Counted from the first letter of the stretch, positions 11,390 through 40,262 are shown. The stretch is DNA of 64,000 bases from Vicinamibacteraceae bacterium (GCA_012271265.1 JAAXGQ010000015.1:6153-70152), one strand, 5' to 3'. The notes: generated by a model not told the origin, from the letters alone. Made by a program: numbers and translations.

Positions 11390-11855
11390 CGGCTCCGACG
11401 GTGCGGCGCAGGCCGGCGAGGACGCCGGCGCTCCATGGGGCCAGCGCTCCGACGGTGCGCCGCAGGCCGGCGAGGACGCCGGCGCTCCATGGGGCCAGTG
11501 CTCCGACGGTGCGCCGCAGGCCGGCGAGGACGCCGGCGCTCCATGGGGCCAGCGCTCCGACGGTGCGCCGCAGGCCGGCGAGGACGCCGGCGCTCCATGG
11601 GGCCAGTGCTCCGAAGGTGCGGCGCAGGCCGGCGAGGACGCCGGCGCTCCATGGGGCCAGTGCTCCGACGGTGTGGCGCAGGCCGGCGAGGACGCCGGCG
11701 CTCCATGGGGCCAGTGCTCCGACGGTGCGCCGCAGGCCGGCGAGGACGCCGGCGCTCCATGGGGCCAGTGCTCCGACGGTGCGGCGCAGGCCGGCGAGGA
11801 CGCCGGCGCTCCATGGGACCGGCGCTCCATGGGGCCGGCGCTCCATGGGGCGCCA
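11390..11855. repeat. tandem array of about 8 copies of a 54-bp unit belonging to the GC-rich palindromic repeat family
   Basis: Unit ccgacggtgcgccgcaggccggcgaggacgccggcgctccatggggccag[c/t]gct, repeated head-to-tail. Each unit contains the hairpin GCCGGCG-AGGA-CGCCGGC. Because the unit is 18 codons, all six frames hold spurious repeat-protein ORFs. Confidence 0.9.
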
Positions 11856-24401: not shown

Positions 24402-24806
24402 ATGAAGAGTTTTCTGTCCGGCCACCGTGAAACCGCCTACGCGCTCCTGCGGATCGTCGCCGGGTTCGGCTTCCTCTGCCACGGGGTCGTGGCGGTGGGA
24501 TTCCTGCTCGGCGACGGCACGCCCTACTCCCCGGCGTGGCTCTACAACACCGCCGGCATCGTGGAGCTCGTGACCGGGGCGCTGATTCTGGTCGGCTACC
24601 AGGTCCGGATCGCCGCCTTCCTCGCCTCGGGGCAGATGGCGGTGGCCTACTTCTACCGCCACCAGCCGGAGGGCCTGCTCCCGATCGCCAACGACGGCGA
24701 ACTGGCGATGGTCTATTGCTTCGTCTTCCTCCTGCTCGCCACCGGCGGCGCCGGCAAATGGAGCATCGAGTCCTGCTGCCCGCCGAAGGGAGCGAAAGCG
24801 GCATGA
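24402..24806 (+). CDS. DoxX-family membrane protein
   Basis: 134 aa with 4 predicted TM helices; YALLRIVAGFGFLCHG is a DoxX-like N-terminus. Confidence 0.7.
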   Translation: MKSFLSGHRETAYALLRIVAGFGFLCHGVVAVGFLLGDGTPYSPAWLYNTAGIVELVTGALILVGYQVRIAAFLASGQMAVAYFYRHQPEGLLPIANDGELAMVYCFVFLLLATGGAGKWSIESCCPPKGAKAA

Positions 24807-25381
24807 ACCTGACGCGAGAGGAAGCCTGGGCGCACCTCACCGACTGGTGCGAAACGGAATCGCTGCGCAAACACGCGCGGGCGGTGGAGGTGGTCATGCG
24901 CGCCGCCGCCGCCCGTTACGGAGGTCCCGATGCCGACCCGGAGGTCTGGGGGATCGCCGGGATGCTCCACGACGCCGACTACGAGAAATGGCCGGAGGAA
25001 CACCCGAACCGGATCGTGGCCTGGCTGCGGGAGCGCGGTGAAGAGGAGCTCGCCCACGCCATCTCCGGCCACTACACGAAGTGGGGCGTCGAGCTGAAGT
25101 CGCCCCTGGACCGGGCTCTGCTCGCCTGCGACGAGCTCACCGGCTTCATCTGCGCCTGCTGCCTGGTCCGGCCCGACGGGGTGTCGACGCTCAAGGCGAA
25201 GAGCGTGAAGAAGAAGCTGAAGTCCCGGGGATTCGCCGCCAAGGTGGAGCGGCACGAATGCCGGGTGGGCGCGGAACTGCTCGAAGTGGAACTCGGCGAG
25301 CACATCACCTTCATCATCGGCGCCCTCCGTCCCCACGCCGATGAGCTCGGCATCACCGGCCGAAGACTTCCCCCTTCCTGA
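24803..25381 (+). CDS. HD-domain phosphohydrolase
   Basis: HARAVEVVMRAAA...AGMLHDADYEK gives the H...HD motif of HD-superfamily hydrolases; ATG at 24803 overlaps the DoxX stop. Its last about 130 bp are duplicated downstream at 27672-27808. Confidence 0.75.
   Translation: MNLTREEAWAHLTDWCETESLRKHARAVEVVMRAAAARYGGPDADPEVWGIAGMLHDADYEKWPEEHPNRIVAWLRERGEEELAHAISGHYTKWGVELKSPLDRALLACDELTGFICACCLVRPDGVSTLKAKSVKKKLKSRGFAAKVERHECRVGAELLEVELGEHITFIIGALRPHADELGITGRRLPPS
25222..25358. repeat. direct repeat A: intact 3' end of the HD gene, duplicated downstream of the inserted cassette
   Basis: attcgccgccaaggtggagcggcacgaatgccgggtgggcgcggaactgc...gagcacatcaccttcatcatcggcgccctcc...ctcggcatcacc is about 88% identical to 27672-27808. 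Confidence 0.85.
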
Positions 25382-26567
25382 CGCCGTGGACGCGGCCCGC
25401 CTCCGGGAACTCCTCGCCAGGAGGGAATCCGACCGGGTGGAATTCACGACTTCGTCGCCCGGGAGGACCGACAAGTTCGCGCAGGCAGCCTGCGCGTTCG
25501 CGAACGACCTGCCGGCGCACGGACGACCGGGGTTCATTGTGTTTGGCGTCCATGACACCGGGTCGCCGGCCGGGTGGACGGTCTCCGACCGGCTTCTGAA
25601 GCGGTTGGCCGGGCTGCGGTCCAATGTGAGCCTGGGACCGATCCCGTCTCTGGTGGTGCACAAGGTCGCTCTTGCCGAGGGTGACGTGGCCGTGGTCGAG
25701 GTTCAGCCCGCCGACTTTCCTCCGGTGCGCTACCGGGGACGCGTGTGGGTGCGGGTGGGGCCGACCCGGCGCGTGGCGACCAGGCAGGAAGAGCAGATTC
25801 TGACGGAAAGGCGCGCCTTCGGCCTGGCCACGTTCGACCTGCGGCCCGCCGCCGGCTCGTCCATCCACGACCTGGCGGAGGACCTGTTCCGGATCGGCTA
25901 TCTGCCGCACGCGGTGTCCCCCGATGTGCTCCTCGAGAACGACCGGGGCGTCAGGGAACAGCTCGCCTCCCTTCGGTTCTTCGACCTCCGGCACGGATGT
26001 CCGACCTATGCGGCGCTCCTGCTGTTCGCCCGGGATCCGTTGCGCTGGATCCCCGGCGCATGGATCCAGTTCGTGCAGTGGGCGGGAACGTCGCTGGCAA
26101 GCGAACCCATCCGCAGCCGTACGGTCGCCGGCGACCTGCTGACCGTTCTGCGCGAGGTGGATCTGCTCGCGTCCCTTCCCACCGACGCCCGGCCGGTCCC
26201 GGAGACGACGCTTCGGGAACGACACGAGCGGCGCTATCCGAAAGCCGCGATTCGGGAACTCCTGCTGAACGCCGTCATGCACCGGCTCTACGAATCGACC
26301 GCGCCCGTTCGCTTCAACTGGTTCACGGACCGCCTCGAGATCCAGAATCCGGGCGGCCTCTACGGGATCGCGCCGGCGGACTTTCCCCATCGGACAAGCT
26401 ATCGGAATCCGGTCATCGCCGAGGCGATGGCGACCCTTGGATACGTGAACCGGTTCGGACGTGGAGTCCTGGCGGCTCAGGCAGCGTTGCGGGCCAACAG
26501 GAATCCGGACGCGGAGTTCCAGTTCGATCCGGCGCACGTCCTGGTGACGATGCGGGCGCGGCCATGA
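25341..26567 (+). CDS. Schlafen/AlbA_2 DNA-binding domain + HATPase_c_4 (RecG-C-terminal-like) protein, often annotated as putative transcriptional regulator/ATP-binding protein
   Basis: N-terminal AlbA_2 signature ESDRVEFTTS...AACAFANDLPAHGRPGFIVFGVHDTG. C-terminal HATPase_c_4 signature IRELLLNAVMHRLYES...RLEIQNPGGLYGI...YRNPVIAEAMATLGYVNRFGRGV. Sits inside the DR-flanked insertion; the start may be slightly downstream of 25341, since that start overlaps the HD gene. Confidence 0.7.
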   Translation: MSSASPAEDFPLPDAVDAARLRELLARRESDRVEFTTSSPGRTDKFAQAACAFANDLPAHGRPGFIVFGVHDTGSPAGWTVSDRLLKRLAGLRSNVSLGPIPSLVVHKVALAEGDVAVVEVQPADFPPVRYRGRVWVRVGPTRRVATRQEEQILTERRAFGLATFDLRPAAGSSIHDLAEDLFRIGYLPHAVSPDVLLENDRGVREQLASLRFFDLRHGCPTYAALLLFARDPLRWIPGAWIQFVQWAGTSLASEPIRSRTVAGDLLTVLREVDLLASLPTDARPVPETTLRERHERRYPKAAIRELLLNAVMHRLYESTAPVRFNWFTDRLEIQNPGGLYGIAPADFPHRTSYRNPVIAEAMATLGYVNRFGRGVLAAQAALRANRNPDAEFQFDPAHVLVTMRARP

Positions 26568-27562
26568 AGACGATCGCGTTCTTCAACAACAAGGGCGGCG
26601 TGGGGAAGACCACGATTGCGTATCACCTCGCGTGGATGTACGCCGACACGGGCCTGAGCGTCGTCGCCGCCGACCTCGACCCTCAGGCCAATTTGACGGC
26701 CATGTTCCTGGACGACAGCAGGTTGGAAGAGGTCTGGCCGGACGATGCCGACCATCCCTTGAGCATTCTCGGCGCCGTGGAGCCGATCCTGCGCGGCATA
26801 GGCGACATCAACCCCGCGCACGGAGAACGCGTTGAGGACCACCTGACGGTGGTGGTCGGAGACCTGGGCCTTTCTCGGTTCGAGGCCCGGCTTGCCACTT
26901 CGTGGCCCGAGTGCATGAACCGGGACGAGGCCGCCTTTCGCGCCCAGTCGGCGTTCTACCGCATCCTTTCGGGCGTAGCGGCGCGTCGGCATGCTGATGT
27001 CGTGTTGATGGATGTCGGCCCGAATCTCGGCGCCATCAATCGCGCTGCCTTGCTCGCAGCGGACTTCGTGGTCTTCCCCCTTGGTCCCGATCTGTTTTCC
27101 CTCCAGGGGCTAAGGAACCTCGGGCCGACGCTCAGCGAATGGCGAGCGGGCTGGCAGGACCGTCTGGACCGCCGCCCGACGGGGCCGGACCTTGCTCTGC
27201 CGGACGGGGGCCCGCATCCCGCCGGCTACGTGGTGATGCAGCATGCGGTCCGGGCGAACCGGCCGGTGCACGCCTGCGAACAGTGGATTCGGCGAATTCC
27301 AGGCGTCTACCGAGTGGAAATCTGCGGCGACGCCGCACCCGCTCCCGCGTCAGGTGCGGACGATCCCTACTGTCTCGGGACACTGAAGCACTACCGGAGC
27401 CTGATTCCGATGGCGCAGGAGGCGCGCAAGCCGGTGTTCGCTCTGAGGGCGGCGGACGGCGCGCTGGGCGGCCATTACTACGCGGTCATGGACTGCCGCG
27501 AAGACTTCGAGAGGCTGGCGCGTTCGATCGCGGACAGTTGCGGCATCGCGGTCCCGGAGTAG
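26564..27562 (+). CDS. ParA/MinD-family (AAA_31/CbiA-like) ATPase with extended C-terminal domain
   Basis: Deviant Walker A FFNNKGGVGKTTIAYHLA and Walker B VLMDVGP. Its ATG overlaps the upstream stop (ATGA), indicating translational coupling. No parB and no centromere-like repeats are nearby. Confidence 0.75.
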   Translation: MKTIAFFNNKGGVGKTTIAYHLAWMYADTGLSVVAADLDPQANLTAMFLDDSRLEEVWPDDADHPLSILGAVEPILRGIGDINPAHGERVEDHLTVVVGDLGLSRFEARLATSWPECMNRDEAAFRAQSAFYRILSGVAARRHADVVLMDVGPNLGAINRAALLAADFVVFPLGPDLFSLQGLRNLGPTLSEWRAGWQDRLDRRPTGPDLALPDGGPHPAGYVVMQHAVRANRPVHACEQWIRRIPGVYRVEICGDAAPAPASGADDPYCLGTLKHYRSLIPMAQEARKPVFALRAADGALGGHYYAVMDCREDFERLARSIADSCGIAVPE

Positions 27563-27671
27563 CCCTGCGGGGCTCGGGGCCTTCCCGCAAGCCGCTGGCA
27601 CGTGTGCGCTTGAGCAGCTGCCGCGACAAACCCGCAGCCGTCGCTCGCGGGGGAGGAAGGACGTAGCTGGA

Positions 27672-27808
27672 GTCCAGGGCGTTCGCCGCCAGAGTGGAGC
27701 GGCACGAATGCCGGGTGGGCGCGGAACTGCCCGGAGCGGAACTCGGCGAGCACATCACCTTCATCATCGGCGCCCTCCTTCCCCAGGGCCGAGGAACTCG
27801 GCATCACC
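27672..27808. repeat. direct repeat B: diverged displaced copy of the HD-gene 3' end (right boundary of the insertion)
   Basis: gttcgccgccagagtggagcggcacgaatgccgggtgggcgcggaactgcccggagcggaactcggcgagcacatcaccttcatcatcggcgccctcc...ctcggcatcacc; it would encode VERHECRVGAEL...EHITFIIGAL, like the HD C-terminus. Confidence 0.85.
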
Positions 27809-27899
27809 TGCCGCCGCCTCCACCGCTGAGCCCCGCGACGCTCGGCACATCCGGGCCGAGGCAGCCGTGCTCTCCCCGGCGAGCTGCGCGAGCTGGTCG

Positions 27900-27957
27900 T
27901 CTGCCCTGTCTGGAGATATATTCCAGATATCTGTAGAAGGGAGAACGCAATGCCGCT
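27900..27957 (+). promoter_or_regulatory. AT-rich promoter/operator region upstream of mazE, with inverted repeat AGATAT-N7-ATATCT
   Basis: ctggagatatattccagatatctgtagaagggagaacgcaATG. GC drops sharply here against the 70% background. The palindrome spans 27914-27932 and a GGGAG RBS lies 8 nt before the ATG. Confidence 0.5.
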
Positions 27958-28189
27958 GACGACGCAGGTGGTTCGCTGGGGAGCGAGCCTCGCAGTACGG
28001 ATCCCGAAGCCAGTCGCCGAACACTGGGGCGTTCGGGAAGGCGTCGTCGTGGACCTCGTGCCCGGTCGCAACCAGGTGATCCTGCGCAAGAAACGTTACG
28101 AATTGAAGGCGCTGGTCGCGGGCATCACGCCGACAAACCGCCATGGGGAAACCGACTGGGGCGATGCGAAGGGCGCCGAGGCGTGGTGA
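27958..28189 (+). CDS. mazE: AbrB/MazE-family (SpoVT/AbrB fold) antitoxin
   Basis: VRWGASLAVRIPKPVAEHWGVREGVVVDLV is a swapped-hairpin AbrB/MazE fold. A toxin gene lies directly downstream and overlaps it. Confidence 0.75.
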
Positions 28190-28524
28190 CCGACCTCCAT
28201 ATGCCCGACCGGGGCGACCTGGTGTGGCTCAACTTCACCCCCCACGCGGGACATGAACAGGCGGGCCATCGTCCGGCACTGGTGGTGAGCCCGAAGGAAT
28301 ACAACTCGAAGTCCAGCCTTGCCCTCTTGTGCCCTGTCACATCCGCGACCCGGGGCTATCCCTTCGAGGTGGCACTGCCCACGAGTGGACCCATCAGCGG
28401 TGTGGTGCTCGCCGATCAGATCCGCAGCCTGGATTGGCGGGCGCGGGGTCTTCGGTTCGCCGCCAAGGCCCCGCCGCGAGTCGTTGCAGAGGTGCTCGGC
28501 AAGGTGTCTACGCTGGTGGGCTGA
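28183..28524 (+). CDS. mazF: MazF/PemK-family endoribonuclease toxin
   Basis: PDRGDLVWLNFTPHAGHEQAGHRPALVVS...LLCPVTS matches the MazF/Kid consensus. The ATG at 28201 is the likely true start. Confidence 0.8.
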   Translation: MVTDLHMPDRGDLVWLNFTPHAGHEQAGHRPALVVSPKEYNSKSSLALLCPVTSATRGYPFEVALPTSGPISGVVLADQIRSLDWRARGLRFAAKAPPRVVAEVLGKVSTLVG

Positions 28525-28542: not shown

Positions 28543-29265
28543 ATGCGGCGCGTCTGGCGGGCCGCAGGGCTCGACAGGAAACTCCGGGACCACCTGGCGG
28601 TACTGATCCAGCGGACCGCCGGCATCCGCGGGATCCGGTTGCGCACCGAGCTGTTCGACCGCGTGCAGATCCACCGCAACAACCAGATCTACCGGTTTCT
28701 TCTGCGGGTGTGCCGGCTGGTTCATGAAGAGGCCATCCCCGAAGCGGATGGGGACGATTTCGACTTCCCCGACTACGACCTCGGCGACGCCGAGACCGGC
28801 GTACTCTTCGAGACCGCGGTCCGCAACGTCCTCCGGATCGAAGCCCCCGACCTCCGCGTTCCGCCCGGCAACACGCAGATTCACTGGCGAGACGCGACGG
28901 CCCCCGAAGGACCCGGCCTCCCGCTGATGTACGCCGACATCGCGGTCCGCCGCAAAGGACCGGATCCGGTCCTCGTCGAAATCAAGTGCGTGAGGGAACC
29001 GTTCACGCAGGGGAAGCTCCGCTCGGGCCACCTGCACCAGGTGTTCGCCTACCTGAAGAACTACCCGGGCGGCGGTCCGCCGATTCCCGGCTGGCTCCTC
29101 TACGCCACCGTCGGCGACAGCTTCCGCTACTCCGGCGCCCTCGACGGACACCCGCTGCACGTTCGGTCGCTCGACCTCGCGAGACCCTGGCCAGGAGTCG
29201 CTGCCGGCCTCCGTCGGTTCGCGAAGGAATTGAGACGCCCACCGGATGGCGCCGGCGCCGCCTGA
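28543..29265 (+). CDS. PD-(D/E)xK nuclease, McrC-like (orphan, possibly N-terminally truncated)
   Basis: VLFETAVRNVL resembles the McrC LFExFV element, and YADIAV...VLVEIKCV is a D...E-x-K catalytic triad arrangement. At 240 aa it is shorter than canonical McrC, and no McrB-like GTPase is adjacent. Confidence 0.45.
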   Translation: MRRVWRAAGLDRKLRDHLAVLIQRTAGIRGIRLRTELFDRVQIHRNNQIYRFLLRVCRLVHEEAIPEADGDDFDFPDYDLGDAETGVLFETAVRNVLRIEAPDLRVPPGNTQIHWRDATAPEGPGLPLMYADIAVRRKGPDPVLVEIKCVREPFTQGKLRSGHLHQVFAYLKNYPGGGPPIPGWLLYATVGDSFRYSGALDGHPLHVRSLDLARPWPGVAAGLRRFAKELRRPPDGAGAA

Positions 29266-29640: not shown

Positions 29641-32343
29641 TCAGAAAGAGGGGGCGAAGAGGACGGCGTTCAGAAAGAGCCGGGTGAGGCCGTCCCAGAA
29701 GAGGCGGAAGTTCGGGTCGTCGAGAAAAAGGACCACCCGGCCGGCGCCGACGCGCTCCGTCACGACGTAGGGCGTGCCGGCGAGGCGTTCGAGGGAGTCG
29801 GGGAAGGCAAAGCCGCTGCCGAGGAGCGCGGCGGGATCGTCGGGGAAGCGGGCCCCGGCGGCGACCATCGGGTCCGGCTCGAAGGCGAGGCTCGACCAGA
29901 CCATGACCGGGAACGGTTCCGGGTAGCCGAAGCTGAGGAAGCTCTCGGGATTCGGCAGGACCCGGAGGATGGCGCCGGGGATCACCTCCGCGGCCAGGTC
30001 GGACGGAGCCGCGTCGGACGGGGGATCGTCGGGGCGGCCGCCGTCGGTCATGAACGACGACTTCGCCGCGACGCCGGGCTGGAGCCGCGAACGGGTCCAC
30101 TCCACGTTTTCCCCCGCGAGCCAGGCCGAGGCGCCGCGCATCGCGACGAGGGTTCCCCCGCCCCGAACCCAGGCGCCGAGGTGGTCGAGGATCGACGCGG
30201 CGGCTGGATCGCTGGCGGGGTCGGGGAAGCCTCCGTCGGGCAGAACAAGCACCCGGTAGCGGCGCAGGTCCGTCGCGGCGAGTCGACCCCACGGGAGCGC
30301 GGTGAACGGCAACCGGACGCGCCGCTCGAAGAGATGCCAGGCGTGGCCGTAGGCGGAGGGACGGATGGGGCCGTCCATGACCATCGCGACCGCGCCGGTG
30401 CGCACCGGGACGAAGCGGTCGGAGCCGAGGTGGGGTCCGGCGGCGGTCAACGGGTCGTCCACGCCGGTGATCCGGGCCCCCGAAGCGGCGAGGTCGGCGA
30501 GTCCGGATCGCAGGCTGCCGGGGTCCGGGGCTTCCCCGGCCAGGACGAGCAGCGAGCCTCGGTCGTAGTCGCGCCCGTCCTTTTCGAAGGACGCGGTGGC
30601 GGCGCGGAACGGAACCTCGTTGTTCCGCAGCCAGACGGCCGCCCGGGCGGCGTGATCCGAATCGCCCCGGACCAGGAAGGCGAACGCGGCGTCCGGCCGC
30701 TCGAAGGCGCCGGAGGTGGGTGACGGCTCGGCGACCGGATCGGTCGGAAACGGGAGGAGGTCCGACGCACTCTCCGGAGGCAGGCCGGCGGCGTCCGCGA
30801 CGACCCACGCGGGGAGGCGGTACGTCAGCGGGACCGACCACGCGGTGATGTCGTAGAAGGCGTCGGCGGTGGTCCAGATGTCCGGGTGGGCGAAGCCCGG
30901 GTCGCGGCGACGCTCCCGATGCTCGTCCACCTGGTCCAGGAACGCCTCGCTGAACCGGGCGTCCTCTTCGAGGAACACCTGCGCCAGCCGCCCCTCGGGC
31001 TGGTCGCGGGCAACGACCAGGCTGCCCGCCGGCAGGCGGACCTCGCCGGCCGGGCCCCGGGCCGGGAACATGGGCCGGGCGCCGGCCAGCACCGCTTCCG
31101 CGGTGGTCCGGCGGACCTCCACCCCGGCACGCAGCAGGAGGCCCCGCACGGCATCGAGCCGGGCCGGGTCGGCGTCGCCGGAAACCACCCACCCGGCCGG
31201 CTCTCCGGCGCCGTCGAGCACGTCGCGGCGGTAGGCGAGGTAGTCGTTGAGGCGCCGCTCCCGGCGCTCCGCGGTGAAGGCGAGGAGGCTGCGGTCGGCG
31301 ACCAGGTGCTGCTCGATCCCGTCGCGCAGCGTGTATTCGCCGCCGCCGGGCTTTTCGATGCGCAGCCCGCGCCAGCCGCCGCCGGTCGTCTCCAGGGTGA
31401 AGCCGATGGACCCGGTGAAGTTCGGCAGGGTGTCCCAGTAGCCGGGATCGAACTGGCCGAACTCCCAGGCGCTGTAGGGGTACCCGGCAGCGGCGAAATC
31501 GCGCGCCATCCGGGCGCCGAATTCCCGGAGCCAGCCGCGCTGGTTTGCGGTCAGGACAGCGTGCAGCGGCTCCACCATCCACGGGCCGATGTAGGAGTCC
31601 GTCTCGCCGTGGTGATCCACGAAGACCATGGGGCGGGTTTCGAGGTAGAGCCGGAGGAGCGCCCGGTTTTCCGGCTGGGTGCTCCAGACGGAATCCCGGT
31701 TCAGGTTGATCTGGTAGTGGTTGTTGTTCGTCGAAAGGCCCCAGGGGGCGCGGTGCTCGGCGGCGTTCGGGTCGGGGTCGCCGTCCGGCCAGCGGGCGGT
31801 GGCCTTGAACCAGGCAGCGAACCGTTCGTGGCTGTCCGGGTTCGACGCGGGGACGATGTAGACCACGGTGTCGTCCAGAAGGCTGTCGTAGCGTCCGTCG
31901 AGGAGCTCCCACGCCATCCAGAGCGCCGCCTCGAAGGCCGCGGACTCGTTGCCGTCATTGCCGTAGTTCAGGAACACGCCGGCAGGCGTGCGGGCGATGA
32001 TGGCCTCCGCTTCCTCGTCGCCGAGGTCCCGGGGGTCGGCGAGGCGCCGGGTGTCGGCCTGGATCTCGTTCAGCCTTGCCAGGTTGCCCGGGGTGCTGAT
32101 CGTCAGCAGGATCAGCTCACGATGCTCGAGGCTTTCGCCGAAGGTCGAGATCCTCAGGCGCCCCGAGTGCCGGATCGCGTCGAGGTAGCGGTAGAGCCCG
32201 TCGTAGGTGGTCAGCGACGCGCCCATCGGAAACCCGAGCACGTCTTCGGGCGACGGGATCGCCGCATCGTCCTGGGCCTCTACCGAGGGGATGTTCGCGA
32301 GTCCCAGCACGAGGAGCGAACGAATCAGGCCACGGGAAATCAT
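29641..32343 (-). CDS. M14-family zinc carboxypeptidase with large C-terminal extension, secreted
   Basis: Signal peptide MISRGLIRSLLVLGLANIPSVEA; M14 zinc-ligand region LILLTISTPGN...IVPASNPDSHE...FVDHHGE (HxxE...H). Start at the Met at 32343; the upstream extension in the ORF track runs through a repeat copy. Confidence 0.8.
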   Translation of the reverse strand: MISRGLIRSLLVLGLANIPSVEAQDDAAIPSPEDVLGFPMGASLTTYDGLYRYLDAIRHSGRLRISTFGESLEHRELILLTISTPGNLARLNEIQADTRRLADPRDLGDEEAEAIIARTPAGVFLNYGNDGNESAAFEAALWMAWELLDGRYDSLLDDTVVYIVPASNPDSHERFAAWFKATARWPDGDPDPNAAEHRAPWGLSTNNNHYQINLNRDSVWSTQPENRALLRLYLETRPMVFVDHHGETDSYIGPWMVEPLHAVLTANQRGWLREFGARMARDFAAAGYPYSAWEFGQFDPGYWDTLPNFTGSIGFTLETTGGGWRGLRIEKPGGGEYTLRDGIEQHLVADRSLLAFTAERRERRLNDYLAYRRDVLDGAGEPAGWVVSGDADPARLDAVRGLLLRAGVEVRRTTAEAVLAGARPMFPARGPAGEVRLPAGSLVVARDQPEGRLAQVFLEEDARFSEAFLDQVDEHRERRRDPGFAHPDIWTTADAFYDITAWSVPLTYRLPAWVVADAAGLPPESASDLLPFPTDPVAEPSPTSGAFERPDAAFAFLVRGDSDHAARAAVWLRNNEVPFRAATASFEKDGRDYDRGSLLVLAGEAPDPGSLRSGLADLAASGARITGVDDPLTAAGPHLGSDRFVPVRTGAVAMVMDGPIRPSAYGHAWHLFERRVRLPFTALPWGRLAATDLRRYRVLVLPDGGFPDPASDPAAASILDHLGAWVRGGGTLVAMRGASAWLAGENVEWTRSRLQPGVAAKSSFMTDGGRPDDPPSDAAPSDLAAEVIPGAILRVLPNPESFLSFGYPEPFPVMVWSSLAFEPDPMVAAGARFPDDPAALLGSGFAFPDSLERLAGTPYVVTERVGAGRVVLFLDDPNFRLFWDGLTRLFLNAVLFAPSF

Positions 32344-32397: not shown

Positions 32398-32468
32398 ACC
32401 CCCGCGCCCACCTGGAGCGCCGGCGTCCTCGCCGGCCTGCGCCGCACCGTCCGAGGACGCCGGCGCTC
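32398..32468. repeat. minimal palindromic repeat element (both inverted termini with a short spacer)
   Basis: ggagcgccggcgtcctcgccggcctgcgccgcaccgtccgaggacgccggcgctcc has the two TIR cores in inverted orientation separated by about 12 bp. Confidence 0.8.
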
Positions 32469-39144: not shown

Positions 39145-40262
39145 GGAGCGCCGGCTCCATGGAGCGCCGGCGTCCTCGCCGGCCTGCGCCTTGCCTGCGA
39201 CGATCCACAGTCCGGGCGGACGGACGCTCCATGGAGCGCCGGCGTCCTCGCCGGCCTGCGCGCAACTTCCGTCCCCGCGGCAGTCTCGCGTCCACAGCGC
39301 CGCCGTGCCGACTCATCCGTGGGCCGGTGAGGACACCGGCGCTCCAGGCGGGCCGGTGAGGACGCCGGCGCTCCAGAACTGACCCCCCTGACGTATCCAC
39401 CCCCTGAACTATCCGCCCCCTGAACTATCGAGCGCCGGCTCCATGGAGCGCCGGCGTCCTCGCCGGCCTGCGCGCAAACTCCGTCCCCGCGGCAGTCTCG
39501 CGCCTGTAGCGCCGCCGTGCCGACTCATCCGTGGGCCGGTGAGGACACCGGCGCTCCAGGACGGAGAGGACGCCGGCGCTCCAGAACTGACCCCCCTGAC
39601 GTATCCACCCCCTGACCTATCCGCCCCCTGAACTGTCGAGCGCCGGCTCCATGGAGCGCCGGCGTCCTCGCCGGCCTGCGCGCAACTTCCGTCCCTGCGG
39701 CAGTCTCGCACCTGCAGCGCCGCCGTGCCGACTCATCCGTGGGCCGGTGAGGACACCGGCGCTCCAGGCGGGCCAGTGAGGACGCCGGCGCTCCAGAACT
39801 GACCCCCCTGACGTATCCACCCCCTGAACTATCCGCCCCCTGAACTATCGAGCGCCGGCTCCATGGAGCGCCGGCGTCCTCGCCGGCCTGCGCGCAACTT
39901 CCGTCCCTGCGGCAGTCTCGCGCCTGTAGCGCCGCCGTGCCGACTCATCCGTGGGCCGGTGAGGACACCGGCGCTCCAGGCGGGCCGGTGAGGACGCCGG
40001 CGCTCCAGAACTGACCCCCCTGACCTATCCGCCCCCTGAACTAGCGTGCGCCGGCTCCATGGAGCGCCGGCGTCCTCGCCGGCCTGCGCGCAACTTCCGT
40101 CCCTGCGGCAGTCTCGCGCCTGCAGCGCCGCCGTGCCGACGGACCCGTGGGCCGAGAGGCCCACGGACCATTGCCCGCCTGCGGCGGGGGCCGGTGAGGA
40201 CACCGGCGCTCCAGGCGGGCCGGTGAGGATGCCGGCGCTCCAGAACTGACCCCCCTGACGTA
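39145..40262. repeat. five tandem about 210-bp units of a MITE-like element with 24-bp terminal inverted repeats
   Basis: Period about 210 bp, with unit starts near 39145, 39427, 39636, 39847 and 40044. Each unit is bounded by GGAGCGCCGGCGTCCTCGCCGGCC and GGCCGGTGAGGACGCCGGCGCTCC, which are imperfect reverse complements of each other. The interior carries C-rich short repeats (cccccctga). Units are more than 90% identical and there are no unique spacers. Confidence 0.9.

What the first reader, a model, noticed from the sequence alone, without database searches (positions are those of the whole stretch)
25222..27808. DR-flanked two-gene cassette: Schlafen/AlbA_2-HATPase_c_4 protein coupled to a ParA/MinD-like ATPase, a candidate undescribed defense or regulatory module
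A 2.3-kb insertion is bounded by about 130-bp imperfect direct repeats. The left repeat is the functional 3' end of the HD-domain gene; the right repeat is a displaced, diverged copy. This is the classic footprint of an element that integrated into the 3' end of a gene and carried a replacement gene end. The cargo is exactly two genes with a 4-nt ATGA overlap. The first is an AlbA_2 (Schlafen-like DNA/RNA-binding) plus HATPase_c_4 protein. The second is a deviant-Walker-A ParA/MinD-type ATPase with an about 100-aa C-terminal extension. No ParB or centromere is present, so this is not a partition locus. It sits directly next to mazEF, an McrC-like nuclease and a VapB remnant, typical defense-island context. 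To my knowledge the AlbA_2/HATPase_c_4 + ParA pairing is not a named defense system. Both components have precedents in defense: Schlafen-like nucleic-acid sensors, and ParA-like ATPases as filament or sensor modules.
Basis: partly seen in the sequence, partly recalled or inferred. Interest (0 to 1): 0.8.

Follow-up and report, generated by a model that had tools for sequence, protein, structure and literature searches.

The report
Schlafen-ATPase plus ParA-like defence cassette
A real, repeat-flanked two-gene cassette: a Schlafen-type nuclease/ATPase tightly coupled to an unusual ParA-like ATPase, conserved as a pair in hundreds of bacterial species and most likely an unnamed anti-phage module.

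Summary
A roughly 170-bp imperfect direct repeat (90% identical) brackets exactly two genes that overlap by ATGA. The left copy is the working 3' end of an HD-hydrolase gene. The right copy is a frameshifted remnant.

Gene 1 is a "Schlatpase": a Schlafen/AlbA_2 nuclease domain plus a GHKL ATPase. Gene 2 is a deviant-Walker-A ParA/MinD ATPase with a conserved C-terminal extension of about 135 aa.

- **Pair conservation:** gene 2's family was found in at least 585 species-level genomes. Gene 1 lies directly upstream in 79 of the 80 loci examined.
- **Physical link:** a natural in-frame fusion of both proteins recurs on 15 contigs.
- **Not partition:** no ParB or other conserved third gene, and no close homologue in 72,556 plasmids.
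- **Defence context:** the pair sits inside Hma helicase-methylase-ATPase systems in 15-25% of loci. Distant relatives of the ParA-like protein pair or fuse with SIR2 and RES NADase effectors, or occupy prophage moron slots.
- **Novelty:** no system-specific PADLOC v2 model and no paper in the searched library describes the pair.
- **Insertion:** there is no integrase. The repeat fits "insertion with long target duplication", and the same footprint recurs at unrelated sites elsewhere.

Defence function and mechanism remain inferred.

The parts
24803..25381 (+). HD-domain hydrolase gene (192 aa), the conserved backbone gene that serves as the insertion target
   Evidence: Pfam HD 5.4e-05. There are thousands of full-length homologues of about 190 aa. 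The backbone beta-lactamase-GSDH-PQQ-DoxX-HD is syntenic in L130, L131 and L132.
25210..25381 (+). Left direct-repeat copy: the functional last 57 codons plus stop of the HD gene
25386..26567 (+). Gene 1, a 'Schlatpase' of 393 aa: an N-terminal Schlafen/AlbA_2 nuclease-like domain plus a C-terminal GHKL (HATPase_c_4) ATPase. The ORF is open from ATG 25341, but homologues support a GTG start at 25386.
   Evidence: Pfam. The pAgo and Aga Schlafen-region models of PADLOC hit it. Motifs E14-x4-E19-x-T21, the C36-A-F-A-N-D box and E291-x3-N295 are conserved. The AF2 model's best PDB hit is 3lmm (DIP2311), followed by human SLFN14/11/5/13, the SAMD9 tRNase and histidine-kinase CA domains.
26564..27562 (+). 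Gene 2, an extended ParA/MinD-type ATPase of 332 aa. It has the deviant Walker A motif KGGVGKT and a conserved C-terminal extension of about 135 aa. It overlaps gene 1 by ATGA.
   Evidence: Pfam AAA_31 3.8e-26 and NCBIfam ParA-family hits all below their cut-offs. Invariant motifs hold across 80 sequences. It matches PDB 3pg5 (DIP2308) over its full length, E = 6e-31.
27563..27659 (.). 97-nt spacer between the gene 2 stop and the right repeat, with no recognisable feature
   Evidence: No terminator, promoter or Rfam match.
27660..27828 (+). Right direct-repeat copy: a displaced, frameshifted remnant of the HD gene 3' end
   Evidence: The alignment with L132 runs 13 nt past the aligned stop codon.
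27950..28524 (+). Context: the mazE (27950-28189) and mazF (28183-28524) toxin-antitoxin pair in the same variable islet
   Evidence: Pfam MazE_antitoxin 1.8e-10 and PemK_toxin 1.9e-25.
28543..29265 (+). Context: an orphan, N-terminally truncated McrC-like ORF. The conserved right flank, peptidase M14 on the minus strand, starts at 29641.
   Evidence: NCBIfam PRK09736 1.5e-31, profile positions 119-350 of 353. Peptidase_M14 is the conserved flank in L001 and L131.

Best explanation
The cassette is a horizontally mobile two-gene immune module of the prokaryotic Schlafen class.

Gene 1 is the probable effector. It carries a Schlafen/AlbA_2 nuclease-like domain and a GHKL ATPase. By analogy with the SLFN-Argonaute RzAgo, the GHKL domain binds ATP and drives assembly of an active nuclease oligomer that cuts tRNA or other RNA and arrests the infected cell.

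Gene 2 is a dedicated ParA/MinD-type ATPase that is translationally coupled to gene 1. I propose it is the sensor or switch. As an ATP-dependent dimer, probably on DNA, it would hold the Schlatpase inactive or license it when a phage cue disturbs it.

The cassette carries no mobility gene. It entered a small variable islet downstream of a conserved HD gene by recombination that duplicated about 170 bp of the target ('insertion with long target duplication').

Shown here:
- the domains and motifs of both proteins;
- pair conservation and the gene overlap;
- a natural fusion of the two proteins;
- the genomic contexts;
- other effector partners in relatives of the ParA-like protein;
- decay of the cassette in a relative.

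Inferred, not shown:
- anti-phage activity;
- RNA as the target;
- which protein senses the phage;
- the direction of control between the two proteins.
For: **The pair is a unit.**
- Gene 1 lies immediately upstream on the same strand in 79 of 80 species-level loci from more than 10 phyla and one archaeon. The genes are typically 0-30 nt apart or overlapping.
- Both close homologues found on viral contigs also have the pair.
- Identities of the two proteins to the window copies co-vary (r = 0.53, n = 73).
- A full-length in-frame Schlatpase-ParA fusion (P0377, 731 aa) is seen with identical sequence on 15 contigs from several sources.

**Gene 1 is a Schlatpase.**
- Pfam SLFN_AlbA_2 and HATPase_c_4 both hit.
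- The E/E acidic pair, the CAFAN Schlafen box and the GHKL E-x3-N box are conserved.
- The fold matches 3lmm, human SLFN nuclease domains and histidine-kinase CA domains.
- Published work shows that pSlfn proteins defend by cutting tRNA, and that GHKL ATP binding assembles the active SLFN nuclease (PMC13056530; bioRxiv 10.64898/2026.05.29.728809).

**Defence context.**
- HmaA is the upstream neighbour in 11 of 75 loci and HmaB the downstream neighbour in 6 of 70. Other neighbours include BrxC, AbiLi, AriA and PbeA.
- Hma-like genes lie within the flanks in 12 of 80 genome loci and 20 of 80 metagenome loci.
- Hma itself is rare: 1,485 distinct systems in more than 230,000 genomes. Genes embedded in it are strongly enriched for defence (bioRxiv 10.1101/2024.01.29.577857).
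- AAA_21 and RloB genes sit directly upstream in L003-L009.
- In the window the cassette shares its islet with mazEF and an McrC fragment.

**The ParA-like family behaves like a swappable defence module.**
- Full-length relatives at 25-37% identity form overlapping operons with ThsA/LmuA-like SIR2_2 genes in Burkholderia, Spirosoma and Vibrio.
- One relative is fused to a RES domain (P0437).
- Another sits next to a small serine recombinase and a type I R-M system.
- Others occupy moron positions in P22-like and Pf1-like prophages.

**Accessory character.**
- The syntenic relatives L130 and L132 lack the cassette.
- L131 carries a decayed, divergent remnant at the same site.
Against: - No experiment exists for this pair.
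- The clade present in the window has Thr instead of the Lys of the catalytic E-x4-(E/D)-x-K motif (40 of 73 family members). Nuclease activity is therefore not assured.
- Slfn-HisKinase fusions were among the seven systems tested in E. coli in PMC13056530. Only the DUF262-Slfn and Ig-like-Slfn systems gave protection.
- Most loci are flanked by ordinary housekeeping genes, not defence genes.
- Schlatpases of the same clade exist without the ParA-like gene. The ParA-like protein is therefore not essential to that protein family.
- Sequence conservation is unusually high for a defence system: 55-69% identity across phyla for gene 2.
- PADLOC-DB v2 dates from 2023. I could not run DefenseFinder or newer releases, so a recent name for the pair may exist.
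Confidence: 0.55

Rival explanations
1. A selfish toxin-antitoxin-like addiction module with no immune role. One protein, probably the Schlatpase, is toxic and the other neutralises it. The cassette persists and spreads through post-segregational killing and horizontal transfer.
For: - It is a compact two-gene operon with translational coupling.
- It is distributed sporadically across phyla by horizontal transfer.
- It moves without mobility genes, as R-M and TA cassettes do.
- In the gene2-selected loci, gene 1 is the partner found truncated or missing (L018, L065, L073, L084, L086) while gene 2 stays intact.
Against: - Gene 1 of the same clade exists intact without gene 2, including two isolated cases inside paired clades (L148, L180).
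- Gene 2 survives without an intact gene 1.
- Neither protein is therefore strictly dependent on the other.
- Neither protein resembles a known antitoxin.
- Most TA-like systems with these contexts turn out to be abortive-infection systems, so this rival overlaps the main explanation.
Confidence: 0.15
2. A regulatory module. The AlbA_2/HATPase_c_4 protein (COG2865, usually annotated as a transcriptional regulator) together with the ParA-like ATPase controls expression of neighbouring genes, for example Hma or R-M genes.
For: - Sister forms of gene 1 carry a C-terminal wHTH tail.
- Solo COG2865 proteins are the second most common family embedded in type I R-M, BREX and DISARM systems.
- Regulators are commonly embedded in defence operons.
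Against: - The paired form lacks any HTH.
- The neighbours are unrelated from locus to locus and are mostly housekeeping genes. No constant target operon exists.
- The nuclease acidic residues and the GHKL ATP-binding box are under strict conservation.
Confidence: 0.1
3. A ParA-driven partition or positioning system. The Schlatpase acts as an unconventional adaptor in place of ParB, segregating a chromosome region, a genomic island or a cellular cargo.
For: - Gene 2 has every ParA/MinD ATPase motif.
- Its nearest characterised structural neighbours are Soj, pSM19035 delta and pNOB8 ParA.
Against: - None of the 72,556 PLSDB plasmids carries a close homologue. The best hit is 37% identical and has no Schlatpase beside it.
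- Plasmids that carry distant relatives have their own separate ParA and ParB.
- No ParB or other conserved third gene is present.
- The cassette is embedded inside defence operons and is lost or decayed in close relatives.
Confidence: 0.03
4. The two proteins themselves promote the cassette's insertion. A nuclease plus an ATPase would act as a minimal mobility machine, which would explain the recurrent long target duplications.
For: - Long flanking repeats of unrelated host sequence recur at independent loci with no transposase or integrase: L019, L033, L053, L074, L146 and the window.
Against: - The same footprint is documented for many unrelated R-M cassettes (PMC2853133), so it does not need cassette-specific proteins.
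- Most loci (about 65 of 75) show no such repeat.
- Characterised Schlafen domains act on RNA.
Confidence: 0.04

Closest known systems
Prokaryotic Schlafen (pSlfn) defence proteins and the 'Schlatpase' supradomain (SLFN_AlbA_2 + PF13749 GHKL ATPase), e.g. RorSlfn5, EcoSlfn7 and the SLFN-Argonaute RzAgo
   Same: - The same two domains occur in the same order.
- The acidic E...E pair, the SAFAN-type box (CAFAN here) and the GHKL E-x3-N ATP box are conserved.
- The fold matches human SLFN nuclease domains.
- Distribution is by horizontal transfer and is linked to defence contexts (PMC13056530; 10.64898/2026.05.29.728809).
   Different: - No sensor domain (Ig-like, DUF262, pAgo, NACHT or HTH) is fused. 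Instead a separate, translationally coupled ParA-like ATPase is present.
- The window's clade has Thr in place of the motif Lys.
- No member of this clade has been tested.
COG2865 proteins (AlbA_2-HATPase_c_4-wHTH, about 470 aa) embedded in type I R-M, BREX and DISARM loci; PDB 3lmm (DIP2311)
   Same: - The Schlatpase core is homologous. 3lmm is the best structural match over both domains.
- A sister clade of gene 1 has exactly this wHTH tail.
   Different: Gene 1 lacks the wHTH tail and is followed by the ParA-like gene.
ParA/MinD (SIMIBI) ATPases of partition and positioning systems (Soj, ParF, delta of pSM19035, pNOB8 ParA, McdA, MipZ, FlhG, BcsQ)
   Same: The deviant Walker A with signature lysine, Walker A' (D37, D39), Walker B (D150) and the overall fold are all present.
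   Different: - It has no ParB, adaptor or centromere, and it is absent from plasmids.
- It carries a conserved C-terminal extension of about 135 aa, shared only with the uncharacterised 3pg5 (DIP2308).
- All NCBIfam ParA-family models score far below their cut-offs (65.8 bits against 180 for ParA_partition).
Two-gene nuclease + NTPase defence systems (Gabija, PARIS, Septu; the Hma-embedded candidates HEC-01 to HEC-03)
   Same: - The logic is the same: an NTPase paired with a nuclease-type effector.
- It is frequently embedded in Hma, and it also occurs on its own.
   Different: - The NTPase is a ParA/MinD type, not an ABC or AAA type.
- The effector carries a second ATPase of its own (GHKL).
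- No PADLOC model for those systems matches either protein.
Restriction-modification cassettes inserted 'with long target duplication' (Nobusato 2000; Furuta 2010, PMC2853133)
   Same: - The cassette has no mobility gene.
- It is flanked by direct repeats of tens to hundreds of bp that are duplicated target sequence, variable in length and in sequence.
   Different: - The cargo is not an R-M system.
- The repeats here are older and more diverged (77-90% identity), and one copy has decayed.

Membership tests
Prokaryotic Schlafen (pSlfn) nucleases | SLFN_AlbA_2 (PF04326) domain with a Schlafen fold | tested here: met
   Pfam 1e-14, residues 29-144 of the 408-aa ORF. The AF2 N-terminal domain has pLDDT 80-90 and hits human SLFN14/11/5/12/13 and the SAMD9 tRNase.
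Prokaryotic Schlafen (pSlfn) nucleases | Catalytic E-x4-(E/D)-x-K motif | tested here: not met
   The window protein has E14-S-D-R-V-E19-F-T21. Of 73 family members, 40 have Thr and 33 have Lys at this position. Both Glu residues are invariant.
Prokaryotic Schlafen (pSlfn) nucleases | SAFAN 'Schlafen box' followed by a Gly/hydrophobic core | tested here: met
   C36-A-F-A-N40-D41 and G54 are (near-)invariant.
Prokaryotic Schlafen (pSlfn) nucleases | Phage-triggered tRNA cleavage and anti-phage protection | not testable with these tools
   Needs phage assays and RNA-end sequencing.
Schlatpase supradomain (SLFN + GHKL ATPase) | PF13749 GHKL domain C-terminal to SLFN in one polypeptide, with the ATP/Mg-binding E-x3-N box | tested here: met
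   HATPase_c_4 2.3e-15. In the window's clade E291 and N295 are invariant. The sister clade has Q-x3-N. The fold hits histidine-kinase CA and PDK domains.
ParA/MinD deviant-Walker-A ATPases | KGGxxGK[ST] with signature lysine, Walker A' aspartates and Walker B aspartate | tested here: met
   K10-G-G-V-G-K15-T, D37, D39-P-Q-A-N and D150 are conserved in 77-81 of 81 sequences.
ParABS-type partition systems | A cognate ParB or adaptor gene and centromere; occurrence on plasmids or at chromosomal origins | tested here: not met
   No conserved third gene in 80 loci. No close homologue in 72,556 plasmids. NCBIfam ParA_partition scores 65.8 bits against a cut-off of 180.
Named or candidate defence systems in PADLOC-DB v2.0.0 (including HEC and PDC candidates) | A match to a system-specific protein model over most of its length | tested here: not met
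   Gene 1 hits only the Schlafen/GHKL region of the pAgo and Aga_SIR2-PNTD models. Gene 2 hits only a 38-residue P-loop segment of PDC-M28B.
Hma-embedded defence candidates (guilt by embedding, Payne et al. 2024) | Cassette found between hma genes in several systems and also widespread outside Hma | tested here: met
   HmaA is upstream in 11 of 75 loci and HmaB downstream in 6 of 70. Hma-like genes lie in the flanks of 12 of 80 and 20 of 80 loci. The window copy itself is not in an Hma locus.
   The cassette holds only the two genes. Flanking repeats at different loci share no sequence.
Insertion with long target duplication (R-M cassettes) | No mobility gene; direct repeats longer than 30 bp that are duplicated target sequence; an empty site in a relative | tested here: inconclusive
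   The first two features are met. Relatives L130 and L132 lack the cassette but carry other genes there. L131 has a decayed cassette. No clean empty site was found.

The most novel reading that the evidence does not exclude
The extended ParA/MinD-type ATPase (the 3pg5/DIP2308 family) is a previously unrecognised class of immune sensor or switch. It is a nucleoid- or DNA-associated ATP-dimer that licenses interchangeable abortive-infection effectors. In the large clade seen here the effector is a Schlafen-GHKL 'Schlatpase' nuclease, linked as an operon and, in one lineage, as a fusion. In other clades the effector is a SIR2 NADase (operon) or a RES NADase (fusion). Solo copies serve as prophage exclusion morons. 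The cassette spreads between phyla without mobility genes, by long-target-duplication insertion.
Probability: 0.4. Interest if true: 0.8.

Novelty: new variant of a known kind. Interest (0 to 1): 0.64.

Why it matters
Schlafen nucleases were shown to be bacterial antiviral effectors only in 2025-2026. The commonest architecture, Slfn plus a GHKL ATPase, still has no known trigger.

This cassette offers a widespread and very well conserved version in which the missing 'sensor' is a separate ParA/MinD-type ATPase. That protein class is known for positioning DNA and organelles. No paper in the searched library links it to immunity.

If confirmed, three things would follow:
- It would add a new kind of NTPase switch to bacterial immunity.
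- It would link Schlafen, SIR2 and RES effectors through one shared partner.
- It would give a tractable system for asking how Schlatpases are activated, with clear point mutants and a natural fusion protein to work from.

The repeat footprint also extends 'insertion with long target duplication' beyond restriction-modification cassettes.

Tried and rejected
- **PADLOC scan of both proteins.** It gave no system-level match.
- **Promoter, terminator and Rfam scans of 24-30 kb.** They found nothing useful.
- **AF2 model of the ParA-like protein.** With a 20-sequence alignment it was poor (pLDDT 57). I used it only to retrieve PDB neighbours, and it should not be over-read.
- **Search for an empty site.** All contigs carrying the identical MazE are the same haplotype as the window. 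L002 differs from the window only by scaffold Ns. No clean empty site was found.
- **P0471, an apparent second Schlatpase-ParA fusion.** I rejected it as a frameshift artefact because its middle is junk sequence and the GHKL part is missing.
- **Perfect T21/E291 versus K21/Q291 covariation in gene 1.** It reflects a single clade split, so I do not count it as functional coupling.
- **Integrase-type integration.** I considered and rejected it: there is no recombinase and no shared att sequence between loci.
I did not find it by eye, but I did not run a profile search.
- **Payne et al. 2024 shortlist of 17 Hma-embedded cassettes.** Whether the pair is one of the untested ones could not be settled. 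The figure is not held, and Table S1 is truncated.

Full report
**1. What is in the window**

The repeat finder reports a 126-nt direct repeat (25210-25335 / 27660-27785, 90%) with an adjoining 37-nt piece. Aligned, the two pieces form one repeat, 25210-25381 against 27660-27828. Both copies end at an aligned TGA, and the right copy carries a 1-nt insertion and a 3-nt deletion. blastn gives 149 nt at 89.9%, E = 2e-49.

The left copy is the last 57 codons of an HD-domain gene (24803-25381, Pfam HD). That gene is full length compared with thousands of homologues of about 190 aa. The right copy is frameshifted and non-coding.

Exactly two genes lie between the copies. Gene 1 is open from ATG 25341, but its homologues are 393-394 aa and begin at the position of GTG 25386, 4 nt after the HD stop. 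Gene 2 (26564-27562) overlaps gene 1 by ATGA. G+C dips slightly inside the cassette, to 0.64-0.67 against 0.68-0.73 in the flanks.

Downstream lie mazE, mazF and an N-terminally truncated orphan McrC-like ORF. After these comes a conserved peptidase M14 gene on the other strand.

**2. The two proteins**

Gene 1 has SLFN_AlbA_2 (1e-14) and HATPase_c_4 (2.3e-15) domains. In PADLOC it matches only the Schlafen/GHKL portion of the pAgo and Aga models. This is the 'Schlatpase' supradomain named in bioRxiv 10.64898/2026.05.29.728809. Its AF2 model has mean pLDDT 70, with 80-90 in the Schlafen domain. The PDB hits, in order, are 3lmm (DIP2311 of C. diphtheriae) over both domains, then human SLFN14/11/5/12/13 and the SAMD9 tRNase, then histidine-kinase CA and PDK domains.

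The following features are conserved in gene 1:
- the two Glu of the nuclease motif;
- the CAFAN(D) Schlafen box;
- the GHKL E291-x3-N295 box, H299-R300, P322-G323 and G358/G360.

The published catalytic motif is E-x4-(E/D)-x-K (PMC13056530). Here the Lys is Thr.

Across 73 family members there are two clades with perfect covariation:

| Clade | Members | Nuclease motif | GHKL box |
|---|---|---|---|
| Window's clade | 40 | E-x4-E-x-T | E-x3-N |
| Sister clade | 33 | canonical E-x4-E-x-K | Q-x3-N |

This is a single phylogenetic split, so I record it as an observation and not as evidence of coupling.

Gene 2 is a ParA/MinD ATPase by Pfam and NCBIfam, although every NCBIfam equivalog scores far below its cut-off. 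Walker A with the signature lysine, D37, D39-PQAN and D150 are near-invariant. So are motifs in the C-terminal extension of about 135 aa: GY(I/V)VMQH and KP.F.L..ADGA.GGH. The only solved relative over the full length is the uncharacterised 3pg5 (DIP2308 of C. diphtheriae; E = 6e-31). The next structural neighbours are pSM19035 delta, Soj and pNOB8 ParA.

The best PDB relatives of both partners thus come from one genome, with locus tags three apart. This hints that the linkage is old. I could not inspect that locus.

**3. Is the pair conserved?**

Gene 2 has thousands of 90%-identity clusters at 65-70% identity and about 330 aa. Gene 1 has thousands at 58-64% identity and 394 aa. Many of these share contigs.

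They include Acidobacteriota, Verrucomicrobiota, Planctomycetota, Cyanobacteria, Proteobacteria, Actinobacteria, Chloroflexi, Nitrospirae, Chlorobi and one Methanosarcinales archaeon.

In 79 of the 80 best loci a gene 1 homologue lies directly upstream on the same strand. A few of these copies are truncated. No third gene is conserved and no ParB is present.

The reciprocal test used gene1-selected metagenome loci. It shows the dependency is one-sided: 38 of 69 loci have the ParA-like gene. The rest fall into three groups:
- solo short forms;
- forms with a wHTH tail of about 95 aa;
- forms with a divergent ParA-like gene.

In a neighbour-joining ordering the solo and wHTH forms make one block, and there are two isolated losses elsewhere.

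A profile search of 1.84 billion representative proteins gives 686 family representatives at E <= 1e-30. Among them P0377 is an in-frame fusion of a complete Schlatpase and a complete ParA-like protein. Its exact sequence is found on 15 contigs, between proS and a yhdP-like gene.

**4. Context**

Immediate neighbours are mostly unrelated housekeeping genes. The one recurrent context is embedding in Hma systems. HmaA is the upstream neighbour in 11 of 75 loci and HmaB the downstream neighbour in 6 of 70. HmaC, BrxC, AbiLi, AriA and PbeA appear in others. Hma-like genes lie within the flanks in 12 of 80 genome loci and 20 of 80 metagenome loci.

Hma is rare, and genes embedded in it proved to be defence systems in 7 of 9 tests (10.1101/2024.01.29.577857). 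The pair is not among the HEC or PDC models of that work.

The pair is absent from 72,556 plasmids; the best hit is 37% identical. It is very rare on viral contigs, with 2 of 2.9 million.

Distant full-length relatives of the ParA-like protein are informative:
- overlapping operons with ThsA/LmuA-like SIR2_2 genes in three genera;
- a fusion to a RES domain;
- a copy beside a small serine recombinase and a type I R-M system;
- solo copies between c2 and gp24 of P22-like phages and at the variable end of a Pf1-like prophage.

**5. The insertion**

Related genomes share the backbone beta-lactamase-GSDH-PQQ-DoxX-HD. What follows the HD gene differs:

| Locus | What follows the HD gene |
|---|---|
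| L101 (94% DNA identity to the window) | the same HD-cassette junction |
| L130, L132 | no cassette; other genes |
| L131 | a decayed remnant right after the HD stop |

The L131 remnant consists of gene 1 residues 4-166 joined to gene 2 residues 278-329. It has no right repeat. It is only 53-57% identical to the window's gene 1, as distant as cross-phylum homologues, although the HD proteins are 82% identical. This points to independent acquisition or allelic replacement at a hotspot.

Long imperfect direct repeats also flank the pair elsewhere:

| Locus | Repeat length | Identity | What the repeat is |
|---|---|---|---|
| L019 | 146 nt | 85% | 5' end of the downstream kinase gene |
| L033 | 182 nt | 77% | 3' end of the Hma helicase |
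| L053 | 83 nt | 90% | 5' end of the DUF1156 methylase |
| L074 | 366 nt | 88.5% | end of an upstream gene and start of the DUF1156 methylase |
| L146 | 146 nt | 86% | not examined |

These repeats share no sequence with each other. They are therefore duplicated target sequence, not element ends, and no recombinase is present. This matches 'insertion with long target duplication', described for R-M cassettes with repeats of 46-423 bp (PMC2853133).

Which copy in the window is resident is not settled. The right copy shares two residues with L101's functional copy. Its alignment to L132 runs 13 nt past the stop. This weakly favours the right copy as the resident one.

**6. Interpretation**

The best-supported reading is a mobile two-gene immune module. 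A Schlatpase is the effector and a dedicated ParA-like ATPase is its sensor or switch.

The evidence is comparative:
- strict co-inheritance of the two genes;
- translational coupling;
- a natural fusion;
- embedding in defence operons;
- other effector partners in relatives;
- turnover in close relatives;
- exclusion of a partition role.

The biochemical steps are borrowed from RzAgo and RorSlfn5 and are inferred: ATP-driven oligomerisation, RNA cleavage and abortive infection. The Thr variant of the catalytic motif is a real caveat. So is the negative result for the Slfn-HisKinase proteins tested in E. coli.

The rivals are less well supported but not excluded. They are a pure addiction module, a regulator, a partition system and self-mobilisation.

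**7. Novelty**

Gene 1 belongs to a known kind. The obligate ParA-like partner, and the wider pattern of this ParA-like family pairing with Schlafen, SIR2 and RES effectors, appear in no paper of the searched library. No system-specific PADLOC v2 model covers the pair either. I rate it a new variant of a known kind.

Noticed in passing
window 11392-11828; 39226-40154; also about 32400-32460: There is a tandem array of a 54-bp unit (8.1 copies, 96% matches) and a second array of a 212-bp unit (4.5 copies). They share a G+C-rich, partly palindromic motif (...GAGGACGCCGGCGCTCCATGG...). Single copies also occur upstream of the peptidase M14 gene. They look like a REP-like intergenic repeat family.
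   Followed up: partly
gene 1 family (window 25386-26567 and loci L010-L089): The family splits into two clades with perfect covariation: E-x4-E-x-T with GHKL E-x3-N (n = 40, including the window), and canonical E-x4-E-x-K with GHKL Q-x3-N (n = 33). Each clade appears to have altered one of the two catalytic centres.
   Followed up: partly
L094:5001-6889, L095:5001-6856, L093:4977-6846: Distant full-length relatives of the ParA-like ATPase (28-33% identity) form overlapping two-gene operons with ThsA/LmuA-like SIR2_2 genes. The carriers are Spirosoma and Vibrio ponticus plasmids and a Burkholderia replicon. No PADLOC model covers the ParA-like partner.
   Followed up: partly
P0437 (545 aa) and P0377 (731 aa; L213:6001-8196): These are natural fusions of the extended ParA-like ATPase: one to a RES (NADase toxin) domain and one to a complete Schlatpase. 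Each is seen on several independent contigs.
   Followed up: yes
L091:4995-6068 (Salmonella phage ST160; also SE1 and ST-32); L092:4073-5026 (Pf1-like prophage): A solo relative of the ParA-like ATPase (25-28% identity over its full length) occupies accessory 'moron' positions. In P22-like phages it lies between repressor c2 and antiterminator gp24, next to a DUF3024 gene. In a Pf1-like prophage it lies at the variable end near att.
   Followed up: no
PDB 3pg5 (DIP2308) and 3lmm (DIP2311): The best solved-structure relatives of gene 2 and of gene 1 are both uncharacterised structural-genomics proteins of Corynebacterium diphtheriae, with locus tags three apart. This suggests a distant version of the same linkage. 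The locus could not be inspected.
   Followed up: partly
L131:6590-7314: A relative with the same gene backbone carries a decayed remnant of the cassette at exactly the same site after the HD stop. It has internal deletions that join the gene 1 N-terminus to the gene 2 C-terminus. It is as divergent from the window's cassette as cross-phylum homologues are.
   Followed up: yes
L132:2288-4015: In another relative, a GmrSD_N gene and a HEPN_RiboL-PSP gene are inserted between the GSDH and PQQ genes of the same conserved backbone. This is a second small defence hotspot a few kb upstream of the HD site.
   Followed up: no
window 28543-29265: The McrC-like ORF matches only positions 119-350 of the 353-position McrC model, and no McrB was seen. 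It is probably a remnant of a decayed McrBC system in the same islet.
   Followed up: partly
L003-L009 (e.g. L003:4883-8993): In a Verrucomicrobiota lineage from digesters the pair is the distal half of a four-gene string, AAA_21-RloB-Schlatpase-ParA-like, lying after an integrase-like gene. The RloB gene overlaps the start of gene 1.
   Followed up: no
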